Positions 44,599-50,416 of a stretch of 64,000 bases of DNA are shown in pieces. Under the pieces are notes generated by a model that was not told the origin of the DNA, did no database searches, and saw nothing but the letters and a program-made list of their open reading frames with translations. The stretch's first letter is position 1. Every line of letters starts with the position of its first letter. This DNA is from Podospora anserina (taxonomy: Eukaryota), in the NCBI GenBank assembly GCA_017654855.1, contig CM030332.1, positions 1,612,001-1,676,000 on the forward strand, in the 5' to 3' direction. The position numbers were made by a program, and so were the translations under genes.

Positions 44599-45404
44599 AA
44601 ATGTACTTGGAACTGTGTTTTGACCGGGTACCAGTTCCATGCTGGTCAGGATGGATATTGAACAGAGACCTGGTTTAGGACCAGATTACCGTAGATATCC
44701 ATCAAACAGACCGAGTTTCACAGTTTGTTTGTGGCGGTTGATATACTCAAAGTGTGTCTATAGCAGAAACATCTCGACTTGCAATGATTCTACAGCAAAC
44801 AGATGCCAGTTGGCCTGGTGTCCAGATAAGTCGAAGCTTCTCAACCTGTGCAAATCATGCTGGCCCCGGATTGGGAACGATGCTTGGGTCGGTTAAACAT
44901 CGGTGCAGACTTCCCCAGACCGGAGGTGGAGCCTTCTCCCAGGTTCCAGGTTGCCCCGTGCTTGAGAGGATTGGGGGAAGGCTCGGCAGGTGGCTGAAGA
45001 CGAAAATACCGAGGTTCACGAGCGCTTTCGACCACCCAAGAAGGGTCGCTCCAGAACCAAGGCTCTCCACCCTTCTCTGCCGTCATCTTGAAAATCACCC
45101 CTTCACCCTTCTCTGCGCCTGGGACGCATTGCCTCCACCCATCCTTCCCTCTTTGATTTTAAGCCAGAAGCGACCTACACGATATTCTCGCACCAACAAC
45201 GACTGACTCTTCTTTGTTGCTCCGACAAATACGCGTGGGGCTGGTGTGTGTGGGCGGCTACCGAGGCCAGGCATCGACCAGTTTGCGACCTGTTCGCTGT
45301 GACCCGCTGTTGCCACCCCGGAAACCCTTGTCCGCCGGCTGAGCGCGCCTCTGTGCTTTTCTCAACATCCCAGCAACAGCAACTCTCCCCCCGTTTGCAA
45401 CACG

Positions 45405-46867
45405 ATGGCATCGCCGCCAAAACCGTGGGAAAGACCAGGCGCAGCGTCTGGAACGACTGGTTAGTGCCTCCTTTATTATCATACGCTCATTCGGATTCAT
45501 TCAGAGCATCTTACTAATCACGCAACAATAGCAACTCTTTCTTCCCCATCCTCAGCCGCTCCAGCTGCGACAACAACTGCGACTCCCAACGCACTTTCCA
45601 ATCCCGCCATGGCGACTTCCACCACAACCGCGTCCGGTACCCCGCCGATACCGCCAGTTCCGGCCTCTCTGACCTCTTCGGTCACACAGAACGCGGCTGC
45701 TTACAGCAGGCCATACGCCGCCTCGCCCTATGGCGGAGGTTACGGTTCAGCCTACTCGTCGCCCTACTCATCACCATACAACAGATATGGCGCTATGGGC
45801 GGTATGGGTGGTTATGGGGGCTATGGAAGTAGCATGTATGGAGGCATGGGTGGATATGGTGGCGGCATGTACGGAGGAGGCATGTACGGGGGCGGGATGC
45901 CAGGAGACCCAAACAACCCGGAGAGTCTCACCAACCGCTTCAACATGAGCACCCAGGCCACCTTCCAGATGCTCGAAGGCATTGTGGGCGCCTTCGGAGG
46001 ATTTGCCCAGATGCTGGAGAGCACTTACATGGCCACGCATTCCAGCTTCTTCGGTAAGTGACGTCGCCAACAGATTGATATTGGCGCGAGACTGACGTTA
46101 TCATAGCCATGGTATCTGTGGCCGAACAGTTTGGAAACCTACGTGACACCCTCGGCTCAGTCTTGGGTATCTTTACCCTGATGCGTTGGATTCGCACCCT
46201 GATCGCCAGGATTACAGGCAGACCCCCACCGGTGGATGCCACAGCCCTCACGCCCGCTGCGTTCGCCCGCTTCGAGGGCCGCAAGCTTCCCGACGGCAGC
46301 GCCCCACCCAAGCCCAGCCGCAAGCCTCTCTTCTTCTTCCTCCTCGCCGCCTTCGGCCTTCCGATGATCATGAGCAGGATTATCCGAGGGCTGGCTGCCA
46401 GCGCTGAAGAAGAGGAGCGCAAGCGCCAAATCATGGCTGCTCAGCAAGTTGTTGACCCCAACAATCTTGTCTTCTGCCGCGTGCTCTACGACTTTACCCC
46501 TGCCAATAGCGGTCCGGCTGCCGTTCAGGGAGTCGATATCCAGGTGCACAAGGGCGACTTTGTTGCCGTCCTGAGCAAGAGCGATCCCATGGGCAACCCA
46601 AGCGAGTGGTGGAAGTGCCGCGCTCGCGATGGAAGAATTGGATATCTCCCTGCGAATTTCCTCGAAGTTATGCGCAAGCCCAACGAGCCCATCGCTGCCA
46701 TCAAGAACACCCCCGCCAGCGAGAGCAGTAGAACTAGCTCCTTGACCAGCTCCGTCAGCGCCCCTGGCACGCTCAGCACGAACCCCCTGAAGGCCCCCCC
46801 GATGCCGACAACCAAGGTTGGCGACGTGACCGTGGAGAGCTTCCAGAAGTCAACGTTCCAATCTTAG
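45405..46867 (+). CDS. PEX13: Peroxisomal docking peroxin Pex13; exons 45405-45459, 45532-46053, 46107-46867
   Basis: MASPPKPWE start; YG-rich domain; TQATFQMLEGIVGAFGGFAQMLESTYMATHSSFFAMVSVAEQF; SH3 domain (CRVLYDF...EWWKCRARDGRIGYLPANFL). Confidence 0.96.
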
Positions 46868-47227
46868 AAGGAGGCCAATGTCATACCTGGACCTGTTATC
46901 AGTACGCACTCGGCACAGCCGGTTCCTGCTTCTGCGCATCCAAGCCGACGCTCTCATTCTCAGCCAGAGCTTTCCATCATTTTACAAGAGTTTAGGAAGA
47001 CGAGGATGACTCCAGTGCCGCGCTACGATAAGCAGTCGGGAACTATGGTATACGTGAATCCCCTGACCGGGGCCCCTGTGATGAATGGAAACCCGGTTGT
47101 GCATTACCAAGATCCTTCACAACAGGCTGCCCACAATCCTCGACAGGGACTCTCGCTTGAAGATTTACTCTGGATGGGCAATGTGAAGCATGCGAAGCGG
47201 GTGAAGAAGGCGAAGACGACGTTCTGA
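46868..47227 (+). other. Stop-free in-frame continuation (119 codons plus TGA) after the PEX13 TAG; candidate cryptic C-terminal extension
   Basis: Reads KEANVIPGPVISTHSAQPVPASAHPSRRSHSQPELSIILQEFRKTR then MTPVPRYDKQ...KHAKRVKKAKTTF* in the PEX13 frame. Confidence 0.6.
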
Positions 47228-48532
47228 GACCGTACAACAACAGCAGCATTACAGCCTTTCTCTCTTTTTTGTGTGTATTTCAGCAGCAACAAACCCGACT
47301 ATTAATATCCCACGAACTCGATGTACCGCGACGAAGGTCATAACGTCAGCATATCTTACCGATGCGAGTCCGATCTCTTTTTTGGCAAAGGGGGAGGGGG
47401 GGAGGATGACGGAACGAAGGAAGGATAGGAAGGAGTGGGAAACGGGTTAACGAAAAGAATCTTTTTCATACAACAAAGTCATGGCGTTTTTTTTTCCTTT
47501 TTTGGAGTTGATGATGACACCATACAGAGCATCAGTTATTCTTGATGAAGCGATGGGAATGAAATTCCTATTATTATTGTACTTTTGTTCTGTTTGCTTG
47601 GGGGGATTTGGGGGGTATTGTAAGCGATAAGGGGGGGGAAGAGCGATTTATTTTGGGACTTGTGTGGTGACGAGGAAGGGTGTGTGTGTGTGTGTGGTTT
47701 TGATAGTTGTATTAAATGAGAGGTATCTTGAACATTGTGCTGTTTGGTTGTTCTATTCCGTTGGTCATGGGATGTTACCCATTGTAGGCTCAACAAGTGT
47801 GGACAGTTGCTACGAGGTGAACAATTTGCATGTGATAGGCACGGCTAGGCCGCGTGTCCTGAACATGTACGTCAGTGTCGCGTGGTGTCTCCAGTTTGGA
47901 TGGATTTCCATGTTGCACTTTTGGTGGAGCAAAACGCAGAAACATATATTGAAACATGGGACGACAAAGAAAGAGCCTCCTCACCATATAACATGATAAT
48001 GGCAGTAAACTCAAAACCTGGGATTCACTACCTTGGGCATCTGGCCAAAAAGGCAAAAAGGGAAAGAGGACTGTTCTACTTTCATAGCCTCTGTTTGGTT
48101 CTTTGATAGCCATATCATACAAAATTAAAAAACCCCTCATCCTTCCCCATCCTTCTCGTCCCTTCCCTCTGAAATTCATCGAATGTTATTTTCGCCTCCT
48201 TCTTTCTCTCTTGCTCTGGCCTTATTCGTCGCTGCCAATCTCTGTAATTTCCCCCGTTTCTGTTTCTTGCCCCCCTAACCGACGCCCAAAGAGAAACAGT
48301 GATAAAATGGTTTTTTTTTATAAAAAAAAAAAGACATCCCCCCTTGATGAGATAGAAGGGGAAAGACCACAACCATGAAATGACCAAGACCCCAGTCCCA
48401 GGGCAGAGACAAAGTCGCCATAACGAAAAAAAAAATGTATACAATATTCCCGTGATAAAGAAAAGGTTACCCGCAGAGCAAAGCGAGAAAAGGAGGCATG
48501 GATGGTGTTGATGTCCCCGCCGAAAGAAGAAA

Positions 48533-50416
48533 TTACCACTCGTACTCCCCCGTAGCCTTGTGGAAGACATACTCCTTGCCGTTCACAGTCAGGACGCCAT
48601 CCTTGAGTGTGCACTTCCTGTAGCCCAGGGTATTAGTATCTGAAATGTTATACAAGTTTCGTGGGAGTAGAGAGACGCACCACTTATTCTTCACCCTCTG
48701 CACCTTGTCATACATGCAAAGCATCATATGCCCCATGTCATCATCTTCATCATCGTCCTCCTTATTGTCGTCAGAGTCGTCCAAGTCAGAGTTGATCGCA
48801 TCGTCATCCAAATCCTCATCGTTCATGTCATCCTCCCCACCATCAACCTGGGAGGGACCCCCAGCAGCGCGGTTCCGTCTATTGTCAAGGCTGCGGACCT
48901 TGGTGGCCTGCTTCAGAGGAAGCATCAGGCCGCCGCCCTCCATCTGCTTGGCTCGGGCGGCGATCTGGGCGTGAAGATGATCATCAATCTCGACGCGGCC
49001 CATCTCGACAGCCCGGCCTTCGGCGTTGCGGCGCATCATGACAGCCTCCCAGCAATCATCGCTAGGGCCATCAGTCTGGGCATTAGGCAAGTTGTTAGGG
49101 GCAATCCCACGCTGCTGCTGAGCCTGTTGAGCCTGTAGCTGCATGCGTTGCTGCATCTGTTGCTGCATCTGTCGTTGATACACCTGCTCTGGGGTCAGCT
49201 GCTGAGGTCCACCCTGCTGTGGCCGTTGCATGTGCTGTTGCTGAATCTGCTGAGGGTGTTGGGGGCGTTGTTGTTGAGGATGCTGTGGGTGTTGCTGATA
49301 CTGCTGCTGCTGAGGGTGTTGCTGGTGTTGAGAATGTTGCTGGTGTTGAGCATGTTGTTGCTGGACCTGCTGTTGCTGCTGTTGGGCTTGGCCAACGTTC
49401 CCTTGTCCGACCTTACCATTACCGTTGGACATGGAGGCAATGGAGGCAGCAGCTCCCTCGCCGTACTTGTTCTGCAAAGCCTGCACAGCCCGGGTAGCGG
49501 CTATGCTGGGGTTGACAGTAGGCAGGCTAGGGTGGGAGGCATTTTGATAACCAGGATGCACGGGCTGAGAGCCAGCGCCGGGTTCCTGCTTGATAGCGAC
49601 CGGCTCAGACCTGACCAACCCTGGCTCCTGCTTGACGGGCACCCCGTTGGAATGAGGCTGGTTGATATTTGGCAGCGAGAGAGGTTGAGCTGAAGTCTGA
49701 GGGCTCAACGTAGACTGGGTATAAGCCGCCTGCGGTGGGGGAGCGGCTTGCGGCGCTGGAGCCGGGGGAGCGGCTGGTTGAGCTGGAGGAGCGGGCTGCT
49801 CTGGCTTCGGGTCCCAGGGAAACTGGGCCACATTGAGCTGCGAGAGCTTCATTTGCCATTTCTGCAGCTTGTGTTAGTCTCATTCATACACATGGCTCCC
49901 TGTAAGAGGGGCAATAAGAAAACAGAAGGAGAGGGGGGGCCCTCTAGCAGGGTGCCACGTGATCAAGCGTGAGACCATCCAATCGGAAGGCAGTGTTGGG
50001 GAATGGAGTAAGTTCGCAGCAGCGGGGAAGGGACTTAAAAAGAGACCCAAAAGCACTGGGCCGCCCACTCCGAGGCAGCTCGCTCTCCACCCCTCTTTGC
50101 GTCCCAGGAGGCCCAGGCAGTCCAGCCCGTCAGCCAACACCGCCCGAACGAAGGGACCGACACTTGTCGCGCCCCTCAACCTCAATCTCGACCACCACCA
50201 ACCATCACCAACATCTTCTCATCTCAATCGACAAACGGTGCGCATCGACACGCAAGCAGGTAAGGAGACAGGGACAGGAATACGGGTTTGCCTCACCTTC
50301 TTCAGGTCCTCGAGCACGCCATCCTCAACACCATTCTCCTCGAAATCAACGCGCACAGCGTCGATGACTCCCTGAATCACAGCCTCGTAAACCTGGCCAA
50401 CGTGAACGTTCGACAT
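48533..50416 (-). CDS. TOA1: TFIIA large subunit Toa1; exons ~50416-50297, 49861-48681, 48617-48533
   Basis: MSNVHVGQVYEAVIQGVIDAVRVDFEENGV...KWQMKLSQLNVAQFPWD; Q-rich middle; QVDG; DAINSDLDD; MLCMYDKVQRVKNKWKCTLKDG...FHKATGEYEW. Confidence 0.94.

What the first reader, a model, noticed from the sequence alone, without database searches (positions are those of the whole stretch)
46865..47227. Hidden 119-codon in-frame extension behind the PEX13 TAG: candidate A-to-I stop-loss (UAG to UGG) isoform
Seen: PEX13 ends ...CAA TCT TAG AAG GAG and the same frame continues with no stop for 119 codons to TGA at 47225-47227. The 73-aa ORF at 47006 is simply the back half of this continuation. The peptide looks protein-like and ends in a basic patch (KHAKRVKKAKTTF). 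A rough chance estimate at uniform codon use is (61/64)^119, about 0.3%. Known: Sordariomycetes (Fusarium, Neurospora, Sordaria) perform ADAR-independent A-to-I mRNA editing in fruiting bodies, preferring U at -1 and purines at +1/+3, and this recodes UAG to Trp. The site here (T-T-A-G-A-A) fits that preference. Pex13 is needed for sexual development in Podospora. Inference: a sexual-stage Pex13 isoform with about 120 extra residues after the SH3 domain could retune peroxisomal import, stability or localisation.
Basis: partly seen in the sequence, partly recalled or inferred. Interest (0 to 1): 0.85.

Follow-up and report, generated by a model that had tools for sequence, protein, structure and literature searches.

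The report
Open frame behind Podospora PEX13 stop
The 119-codon open stretch behind the stop codon of the Podospora anserina PEX13 gene is real and is transcribed, but it looks like an unconserved, dispensable part of the 3' untranslated region that RNA editing might at most read into occasionally.

Summary
The window is Podospora anserina. PEX13 (PODANS_1_4570, 445 aa) ends at TAG 46865-46867, and the same frame stays open for 119 codons to TGA 47225-47227 (chance about 0.6%).

For the editing idea:
- Spliced RNA contigs from 4 of 4 runs bridge the stop and the whole stretch.
- The site has 5 of 6 neighbour bases preferred by fungal A-to-I editing.
- Sordariales relatives mostly keep TAG.
- One clade of relatives keeps a different 28-41 codon continuation in frame through several indels.

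Against a functional 119-residue isoform:
- All four contigs read A at 46866.
- No public protein carries a read-through form.
- The peptide has no homologue in 80 related loci.
- Close relatives change it about ten times faster than PEX13 exon 3.
- Published PEX13-GFP and PEX13-mCherry knock-ins remove the stop and uncouple the downstream DNA, yet are fully fertile.

My verdict is an ordinary long 3'UTR with a largely fortuitous open frame. Sexual-stage stop-loss editing remains untested; I put detectable editing at about 35% and a selected function at about 15%. If it is real, it would be one more member of a known class.

The parts
45405..46867 (+). PEX13 gene (PODANS_1_4570). Exons are 45405-45459, 45532-46053 and 46107-46867, including the TAG. 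Introns are 45460-45531 and 46054-46106. The product is 445 aa.
   Evidence: The translation matches P0009 at 100%. Both introns appear as GT..AG joints in RNA contigs. Pfam finds Peroxin-13_N and SH3.
46865..46867 (+). TAG stop codon of PEX13. The A at 46866 is the candidate A-to-I site (context TT-A-GAAG).
   Evidence: Searches show 5 of 6 neighbour positions preferred, by the preferences given in PMC9600606 section 6. The contigs of 4 of 4 runs read A.
46862..46872 (+). Weak predicted hairpin UCUU-AGA-AGGA, which places A46866 as the first base of a 3-nt loop.
   Evidence: MFE is -8.7 kcal/mol for +/-30 nt, no better than shuffles (z = 1.1). Relatives have a longer version, ACUCNU-AGR-ANGAGU.
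46868..47227 (+). In-frame continuation of 119 codons plus TGA. It lies inside the DNA bridged by PEX13 RNA contigs.
   Evidence: There is no Pfam family and no homologue apart from its own ORF calls.
47006..47227 (+). 73-codon ATG ORF, the back half of the continuation. Only automatic ORF calls on Logan assemblies list it.
   Evidence: P0001 occurs on 47 contigs, has 4 variants, and none carries a name or an NCBI record.
47228..47668 (+). The rest of the stretch covered by PEX13 RNA contigs, which end at 47520, 47551, 47611 and 47668. It includes the motif GGAGTTGA at 47504, shared with the 3' regions of relatives.
   Evidence: Contig ends do not prove poly(A) sites.
48088..49873 (-). Convergent neighbour gene (Q-rich; the same neighbour follows PEX13 in relative L012). 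No gene lies between it and PEX13.

Best explanation
The 119 open codons are the first 360 nt of a long PEX13 3' untranslated region in Podospora anserina. Normal PEX13 ends at the conserved C-terminus ...ESFQKSTFQS.

The frame behind the TAG is open largely by chance. An inherited tendency of Sordariales PEX13 to tolerate, or mildly favour, some read-through of its TAG may also contribute. The peptide it would encode is neither conserved nor required.

Because the TAG sits in a sequence context favoured by the fungal TAD2/TAD3 editing enzyme, some UAG-to-UIG recoding in perithecia is plausible. I estimate about 35% for detectable editing. If it occurs, the extended PEX13 is most likely a tolerated by-product, like most stop-loss edits.

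Shown here: the open frame, the transcript coverage, the site context, the lack of conservation and the dispensability. Inferred: that no meaningful amount of the extension is made.
For: 1. No homologue of the peptide.
- Among 1.84 billion representative proteins, only its own 73-aa ORF and a repeat protein scored E <= 0.001.
- No protein of 210-2000 aa matched.
- None of the 120 best PEX13 relatives listed covers more than 68% of a TAG=W read-through query, that is, none covers the extension.
- Of 131 stored proteins, 115 have the C-terminal motif, and only 1 has residues after it (TN).
- blastn and tblastn against 80 related loci found nothing below E 0.03 (nt) or 2.4 (aa).

2. Fast amino-acid change within the species complex. 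There are 4 variable sites in 73 residues, and one variant carries 3 changes, while PEX13 exon 3 shows 1 change in 252 residues.

3. No sign of majority editing.
- All 4 RNA-type runs give a single contig across the site reading A.
- 25 spliced ORF calls (P0007 on 24 contigs, P0130 on 1) end at the TAG.

4. Published genetics. PEX13-GFP and PEX13-mCherry knock-ins delete the stop codon and insert a tag plus a HygR cassette before the downstream DNA. Homozygous crosses are fertile with normal black ascospores, and growth on oleate is normal (PMC10782954, sections 5 and 14 read).

5. Synteny. In relative L012 the same convergent neighbour gene follows PEX13 with no gene in between.

6. No recognisable protein features.
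- The protein language-model recognition score is 1381, below the 2300 level reached by 91% of known families.
- AlphaFold mean pLDDT is 59.7.

7. Base rate. 403 of 4,292 TAG-ending genes are stop-loss edited in F. graminearum, and a published analysis argues such editing is not generally adaptive (PMC13123824 passages; PMC13684035 whole text).
Against: - The frame is open with chance about 0.6%, while the other five frames hold 3-7 stops.
- Its codon-usage score (0.058 bits per codon) is the best of the six frames and lies above a random-open null (-0.126 +/- 0.072; 0.4% of 3000 draws reach it). It still falls in the lowest 8% of real CDS windows (0.253 +/- 0.124).
- The site context is good (5 of 6 preferred), and the A is unpaired in the +/-30 nt fold.
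- In Sordariales relatives, TAG is kept in 10 of 12 lineage groups even though the preceding Ser codon uses all four third bases.
- Continuations in Sordariales are longer than composition predicts: Fisher p = 0.0025 for 8 groups without L022, and 0.025 also without P. anserina. The 28 non-Sordariales lineages give p = 0.56.
- One clade keeps a homologous 28-41 codon continuation in frame across 5 length classes, while the UTR behind it changes length out of phase.
- The growth stages of the RNA runs are unknown, and contigs drop minority variants. Editing below about 50% is therefore not excluded.
- The tagged strains always carry a C-terminal addition, so they do not test a subtle dosage role.
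Confidence: 0.6

Rival explanations
1. Regulated stop-loss editing with a function. In perithecia TAD2/TAD3 deaminates A46866, UIG is read as Trp, and PEX13 gains a C-terminal tail behind its SH3 domain. The tail changes PEX13 stability or partner binding during meiotic development, as shown for FgDbf2. The length and disorder of the tail would matter, not its sequence.
For: - Site context is 5 of 6 preferred, and RNA contigs bridge the whole frame.
- TAG is retained in 10 of 12 Sordariales lineage groups.
- The A lies in a predicted hairpin loop in 11 of 14 Sordariales TAG rows, against 8 of 15 TAG rows elsewhere.
- For the stem ACUCNU/ANGAGU, 71.9% of cells pair against 68.0 +/- 1.7 in shuffles (12 of 500 reach it). 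The covariation score is 0.261 against 0.194 (5 of 500), and it includes C-G to G-C exchanges.
- Frame-preserving indels in the clade L001/L005/L011/L012/L014/L015/L016: 123, 93, 114, 114, 114, 81 and 96 nt, all divisible by 3. The control segment gives 248, 259, 257, 256, 224 and 223 nt.
- Continuations are longer than expected in Sordariales only.
- The same hallmarks (hairpin-embedded TAG, TAG bias, long poorly conserved tails) were used to argue for conserved DBF2 stop-loss editing (PMC13123824 passages).
- PEX13, unlike PEX14, is needed for meiotic induction in P. anserina, and its abundance is developmentally regulated (PMC10782954 abstract).
Against: - No A>G in 4 of 4 contigs and no extended ORF call anywhere.
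- The P. anserina tail is not homologous to the relatives' tails and changes fast in close relatives.
- Knock-ins that cannot make it are fertile.
- PEX13 rises rather than falls in sexual development, and it does so in the allele that lacks the TAG. That regulation therefore does not depend on the stop.
- The hairpin in P. anserina itself has only 4 bp and is no more stable than shuffles. The slide-by-one control also pairs well (62.5%, covariation 0.217) because the arms are pyrimidine-rich and purine-rich.
- The relatives' continuations are GC-rich (0.58-0.67) with few stops in any frame.
- dN/dS in the continuations is 0.54-2.6 for the closest pairs.
- TAG is also common in one non-Sordariales clade (10 of 14 rows) with short continuations.
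Confidence: 0.17
2. The 73-codon ORF from ATG 47006 is an independent small protein, or a downstream ORF translated from the PEX13 mRNA or from its own transcript.
For: - It has an ATG with A at -3.
- Its codon score is 0.085, slightly higher than the 0.015 of the first 46 codons.
- The ORF is intact in 5 sequence variants on 51 contigs.
- The AlphaFold model has a three-stranded sheet at extension residues 50-72, with block pLDDT of 76-81.
Against: - Only automatic ORF calls on Logan assemblies list it. It has no NCBI or UniRef record and no name.
- It has no homologue, no Pfam family, and 4 variable sites in 73 residues.
- Relatives have no gene between PEX13 and the convergent neighbour.
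- Contigs show no separate transcript, although they cannot show transcript starts.
- The intact variants are ascertained by being ORF calls.
Confidence: 0.05
3. Translational read-through of UAG without editing, or an alternative splice that skips the TAG, makes the extended form.
For: - Read-through extensions are known in fungi for peroxisomal targeting (Freitag et al. 2012, seen only as a reference in PMC13123824).
- A hypothetical 51-nt intron at 46817-46867 would be in frame (read from the sequence).
Against: - No joint other than the two PEX13 introns and the neighbour's intron appears in 4 of 4 runs.
- The hypothetical 5' site GTTGGC is poor, and the skipped residues are the most conserved part of the tail.
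- TAG-AAG is not a read-through context that I recall (from memory, not tested).
- The tail does not end in a PTS1-like tripeptide.
Confidence: 0.04

Closest known systems
A-to-I stop-loss editing of FgDBF2, FgMOB1 and FgCDC14 in Fusarium graminearum (PMC13123824)
   Same: A UAG stop in a Sordariomycete gene with a role in sexual development. Neighbour bases are preferred, the stop sits in a small predicted hairpin loop, TAG is retained in relatives, and the in-frame tail is poorly conserved and lacks a known domain.
   Different: Editing there was measured (70-78% at 7 days post-fertilisation), and the tails are 11-27 aa. Here no edited read has been seen, the tail would be 119 aa, and strains without the stop and tail are fertile.
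Genome-wide stop-loss sites in Sordariomycetes and Pezizomycetes: 403 genes in F. graminearum, 47 sites in Sordaria macrospora protoperithecia, 149 in Pyronema confluens (PMC13123824, PMC5381528)
   Same: This would be one more TAG stop of that class, in a Sordariales species with the same life style.
   Different: I found no catalogue of P. anserina editing sites in the library. Individual sites are reported as rarely conserved between species (PMC5381528 passages). The supplementary tables that might list PEX13 orthologues were closed.
Cryptic peroxisomal targeting by stop-codon read-through or alternative splicing in fungi (Freitag et al. 2012, recalled; seen only as a reference)
   Same: A hidden C-terminal extension behind a stop codon, in a peroxisome-related context.
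   Different: Those extensions add a PTS1 signal to cytosolic enzymes. This tail ends ...KTTF, and it sits on a membrane peroxin.

Membership tests
Fungal ADAR-independent A-to-I stop-loss editing site | The genomic stop is UAG, so the edited form reads UGG. | tested here: met
   TAG lies at 46865-46867.
Fungal ADAR-independent A-to-I stop-loss editing site | U at -1 and preferred neighbours from -2 to +4 (C/U, U, A/G, G, A/G, A/G). | tested here: met
   The context TT-A-GAAG has 5 of 6 positions preferred; only +2 (A) is depleted (preferences from PMC9600606 section 6).
Fungal ADAR-independent A-to-I stop-loss editing site | The target A lies in a stable hairpin loop. | tested here: inconclusive
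   The A lies in a 3-nt loop closed by 4 bp. MFE is -8.7 kcal/mol against a shuffle mean of -11.6. Relatives have 5-6 bp stems with weak covariation.
Fungal ADAR-independent A-to-I stop-loss editing site | A>G in sexual-stage RNA, absent from DNA and from vegetative RNA. | tested here: inconclusive
   4 of 4 spliced contigs read A. The growth stages are unknown and contigs hide minority variants. No extended ORF call exists.
Fungal ADAR-independent A-to-I stop-loss editing site | The transcript continues through the in-frame extension. | tested here: met
   Contigs of 4 of 4 runs join PEX13 exons to at least 47520 with no joint after 46106. A contig cannot prove a single transcript.
Fungal ADAR-independent A-to-I stop-loss editing site | The extended protein is detected. 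| not testable with these tools
   This needs proteomics for STFQSWK or a tag placed before the TGA.
Peroxin 13 (PEX13) | An N-terminal Peroxin-13 region plus a C-terminal SH3 domain, with orthology to characterised PEX13. | tested here: met
   PF04088 scores E 2.3e-21 and SH3 scores E 9.8e-10. The protein is 100% identical to PODANS_1_4570. The primers of PMC10782954 map to this locus.
WW domain (considered for extension residues 50-72) | Two signature Trp residues and a match to the family profile. | tested here: not met
   There is no Pfam WW hit at E <= 10. Foldseek hits to the Pin1 WW domain have E 2-4 over 22-23 columns. Tyr and Met stand at the two Trp positions; that alignment was made by eye.
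Mitochondrial ribosomal protein bL28m (considered for extension residues 46-115) | Significant sequence similarity. | tested here: not met
   phmmer gives E 0.21. A control ORF from the intergenic region gives E 0.41. There is no Pfam L28 hit.

The most novel reading that the evidence does not exclude
Read-through of the PEX13 stop by A-to-I editing is an old, selected feature of Sordariales. The TAG is held in a small hairpin formed between the last PEX13 codons and the first codons behind the stop, and the frame behind it is kept open (28-41 codons in the clade that groups with Chaetomiaceae and Podosporaceae, 119 in P. anserina). The tail would give a sexual-stage form of the docking peroxin. 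That form could help explain why meiotic induction in Podospora needs PEX13 but not PEX14.
Probability: 0.12. Interest if true: 0.6.

Novelty: new member of a known kind. Interest (0 to 1): 0.3.

Why it matters
P. anserina is the model in which peroxisomes were tied to meiotic commitment. There PEX13 behaves differently from its docking partner PEX14, and its abundance is tuned through sexual development (PMC10782954). A stage-specific PEX13 isoform would offer a concrete handle on that puzzle.

The present evidence says the 119-residue tail is not needed for fertility and is not conserved, so the finding is mostly an ordinary long 3'UTR. The part worth keeping is comparative: several Sordariales lineages retain TAG, a stop-embedding hairpin and an in-frame continuation behind PEX13. 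That can be checked cheaply against existing perithecial RNA-seq of Neurospora, Sordaria, Chaetomium and Podospora.

Tried and rejected
- **Whole genome:** none is held for this window.
- **Sequencing runs:** no RNA holder listed. The four runs I laid were chosen blind for year and study (X1, X5, X14, X15 of 24 listed). Their contigs lack the PEX13 introns (intron 2 in 4 of 4 runs, intron 1 in 3 of 4), so I treat them as RNA. Their growth stages are unknown.
- **Alternative splicing around the TAG:** no joint was seen.
- **Rfam on 44800-48700:** 0 matches at E <= 1.
- **Pfam on the extension:** only Gp5_OB, below its cut-off (E 0.058-0.15).
- **ESM Atlas:** no usable hit.
- **Foldseek against PDB:** 0 matches at E <= 0.001. 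The weak rows are mitoribosome chains (TM 0.2, rmsd 18 A) and Pin1 WW domains.
- **phmmer against PDB:** bL28m at E 0.21, with a 70-residue colinear alignment that looks persuasive. A control non-coding ORF scored E 0.41, so I rejected it as chance.
- **P0002 (932 aa):** it hits only through 8 repeats of a short beta-hairpin-like motif, which is not homology.
- **tblastn hit in L012/L013 (E 7.3):** it lies antisense within the neighbour gene and is spurious.
- **dN/dS of the relatives' continuations:** 0.26-0.42 for distant pairs, but the protein-guided alignment biases this downward, and the closest pairs give 0.54-2.6. I give it little weight.
- **Stop-codon tally as a Sordariales-specific signal:** weakened because one outgroup clade also has TAG in 10 of 14 rows.
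- **Rows dropped:** of 80 loci, 2 ran off the contig before the stop (L021, L042). Near-identical loci were collapsed to lineage groups before counting. L022 was left out of one Fisher test because its 709 open codons probably hold a real coding region.
- **Literature:** four searches found no paper linking PEX13 to RNA editing and no editing catalogue for P. anserina. Supplementary tables of the Fusarium, Neurospora and Sordaria editing papers were closed and may list PEX13 orthologues.
Full report
**What is there**

The window is Podospora anserina. The gene at 45405-46867 has three exons, and RNA contigs confirm both introns. It encodes a 445-aa protein identical to PODANS_1_4570, annotated as PEX13. 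It carries Peroxin-13_N and SH3 domains. Primers published for tagging this gene map at 46025 and 47662.

The gene ends ...CAA TCT TAG at 46865-46867. The same frame then runs for 119 codons to TGA 47225-47227. The 73-codon ATG ORF at 47006 is its back half.

**Is the open frame more than chance?**

With local base composition, the chance of 119 open codons is 0.55-0.58%. The other five frames of the same DNA carry 3-7 stops each. This is nominally unusual, but a genome of about ten thousand genes should yield dozens of such cases. Among 15 long ORFs of this window, two others are followed by 87 and 99 open codons (some of those stops may lie in introns).

A codon-usage score trained on 8,413 codons from this window gives:
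- 0.058 bits per codon for the frame, the best of the six frames;
- -0.126 +/- 0.072 for a random-open null, which reaches the observed value in 0.4% of 3000 draws;
- 0.253 +/- 0.124 for real coding windows, of which the frame falls in the lowest 8%.

The stretch is thus faintly coding-like, no more.

**Transcription**

I laid the contigs of four coded runs on 45000-48700. In all four, a contig lacking PEX13 intron 2 (and intron 1 in three of them) continues without any joint through the TAG and the whole 119-codon frame. The contigs end at 47520, 47551, 47611 and 47668.

Contigs cannot prove a single transcript or a true 3' end.

No letter differs from the window in any of the four, so position 46866 reads A. 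Contigs drop minority variants and the growth stages are unknown. This argues only against majority editing in these samples.

In the same direction:
- 25 spliced ORF calls from public assemblies end at the TAG.
- No protein of 210-2000 aa contains the extension.
- None of the 120 best PEX13 relatives extends past the canonical end.

**The peptide**

- It has no Pfam family.
- Among 1.84 billion representative proteins, its only relatives are its own ORF calls.
- The language-model recognition score is low, and the AlphaFold model is poor, with mean pLDDT 59.7.
- A three-stranded element at residues 50-72 resembles a WW domain without its tryptophans. A 70-residue alignment to mammalian bL28m also looks tempting. 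Both are at chance level: Foldseek E is about 2, and phmmer E is 0.21 against 0.41 for a control non-coding ORF.

Within the P. anserina species complex, the last 73 residues show four variable sites, and one lineage carries three changes. PEX13 exon 3 shows one change in 252 residues. That is roughly ten times faster, as expected for unconstrained sequence. Synonymous changes could not be seen.

**Relatives**

A scan of metagenome contigs returned 80 loci encoding PEX13 exon 3 at 53-77% identity. A tree with 30 named proteins places about 15 of them in Sordariales.

*The canonical end is conserved.* PEX13 ends ...ESFQKSxFxS in nearly all loci, so the canonical stop is ancient.

*The P. anserina continuation is lineage-specific.* It has no nucleotide or peptide similarity in any locus. 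In L012 the same convergent neighbour gene follows PEX13 with no gene in between.

*Some signs that Sordariales tolerate or use read-through of this stop:*
- TAG is kept in 10 of 12 lineage groups, while the preceding Ser codon uses all four third bases.
- Continuations are longer than composition predicts. Fisher p is 0.0025 without L022, and 0.025 also without P. anserina. The 28 other lineages fit the null (p = 0.56).
- In the clade L001/L005/L011/L012/L014/L015/L016, a homologous continuation ending in an acidic motif keeps its frame across five length classes. The distances are 123, 93, 114, 114, 114, 81 and 96 nt. The UTR behind it changes length out of phase: 248, 259, 257, 256, 224 and 223 nt.
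- The last PEX13 codons pair with the first codons behind the stop (ACUCNU-AGR-ANGAGU), which places the A of TAG in a small loop. Pairing is 71.9% against 68.0 +/- 1.7 in shuffles (12 of 500 reach it), and covariation is reached by 5 of 500.

*Caveats on those signs:*
- The slide-by-one control pairs almost as well.
- The relatives' continuations are GC-rich, with few stops in any frame.
- The closest pairs show dN/dS of 0.5-2.6.
- One non-Sordariales clade also favours TAG.
- The lineages are not independent, and I noticed the pattern after the fact.

**Editing plausibility**

From PMC9600606 (section 6 read), the preferred neighbours are C/U at -2, U at -1, A/G at +1, G at +2, and A/G at +3 and +4. 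The site TT-A-GAAG meets five of the six.

In the +/-30 nt fold, the A is the first base of a 3-nt loop on a 4-bp stem that is no more stable than shuffles.

For a base rate, 403 of 4,292 TAG-ending genes are stop-loss edited in F. graminearum. Putting this together, I estimate about 35% that detectable editing occurs at 46866 in perithecia.

**Function**

Aguirre-Lopez et al. (PMC10782954; abstract and sections 5 and 14 read, passages searched) tagged PEX13 at its native locus. They fused GFP or mCherry to the last sense codon, excluding the stop, and followed it with a HygR cassette and then the 819 bp that lie downstream of the stop.

These strains cannot make the 119-residue tail. They grow normally on dextrin and oleate. 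Homozygous crosses are fertile with normal black ascospores, whereas the pex13 deletion is sterile.

The rise of PEX13 during sexual development was seen with this TAG-less allele. That regulation therefore does not depend on the stop. A required role for the extension is in effect already refuted. A subtle tuning role is not.

**Verdict**

The editing hypothesis is reasonable but unproven. Its functional inference for P. anserina runs against the lack of conservation and the published genetics.

The most likely reading (0.6) is an ordinary long 3'UTR whose first 360 nt happen to be open in the PEX13 frame, with at most incidental stop-loss editing. A selected stop-loss isoform (0.17) would be a new member of a well-known class: hundreds of such sites in Fusarium, Neurospora and Sordaria, with DBF2 as the worked example. 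The comparative signal in other Sordariales is the most interesting by-product, and it can be tested with existing perithecial RNA-seq.

Noticed in passing
L001:1418-1543, L005:3266-3373, L011/L012/L014:3269-3385, L015:1059-1145, L016:3269-3367: Unnamed Sordariales lineages from metagenomes, in the clade that holds Chaetomiaceae and Podosporaceae, share a TAG stop followed by a homologous 28-41 codon continuation ending in an acidic motif (..EESESEAE*). Five length classes are all in frame, while the UTR behind it shifts phase. This may be a conserved read-through tail of PEX13, different from the P. anserina one.
   Followed up: partly
L022:1930-4062: In this long-branched Sordariales-like locus, the PEX13 TAG is followed by 709 open in-frame codons encoding an acidic, low-complexity protein with no Pfam family. 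It is either a downstream gene that happens to be in frame with no stop in between, or a fusion that is read through.
   Followed up: partly
window 47481-47511; L005, L011, L012, L014, L015 and L016 about 310-380 nt after their stops: A short 3'UTR motif (TGGCGTTTTT...GGAGTTGA) is shared between P. anserina and distant Sordariales PEX13 loci. It lies 636 nt after the stop in P. anserina but only 311-376 nt after it in the relatives, so the P. anserina UTR is about 260 nt longer upstream of it.
   Followed up: partly
all 80 loci; window 46817-46864: The extreme C-terminus of PEX13 (KVGDVTxESFQKSxFxS-stop) is conserved far beyond Sordariales, more than the linker after the SH3 domain. Even so, a C-terminal GFP fusion is functional in P. 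anserina.
   Followed up: no
window 47017-47082 (extension residues 50-72): A WW-like pattern (YDKQSGTMVYVNPLTGAPVMNGNP) is modelled by AlphaFold as a three-stranded sheet with block pLDDT of 76-81, but it lacks both signature tryptophans. The matches are not significant.
   Followed up: yes
window 47669-47707: A (GT)n-rich simple repeat lies just past the longest PEX13 RNA contig. Reads appear cut there in run X1.
   Followed up: no
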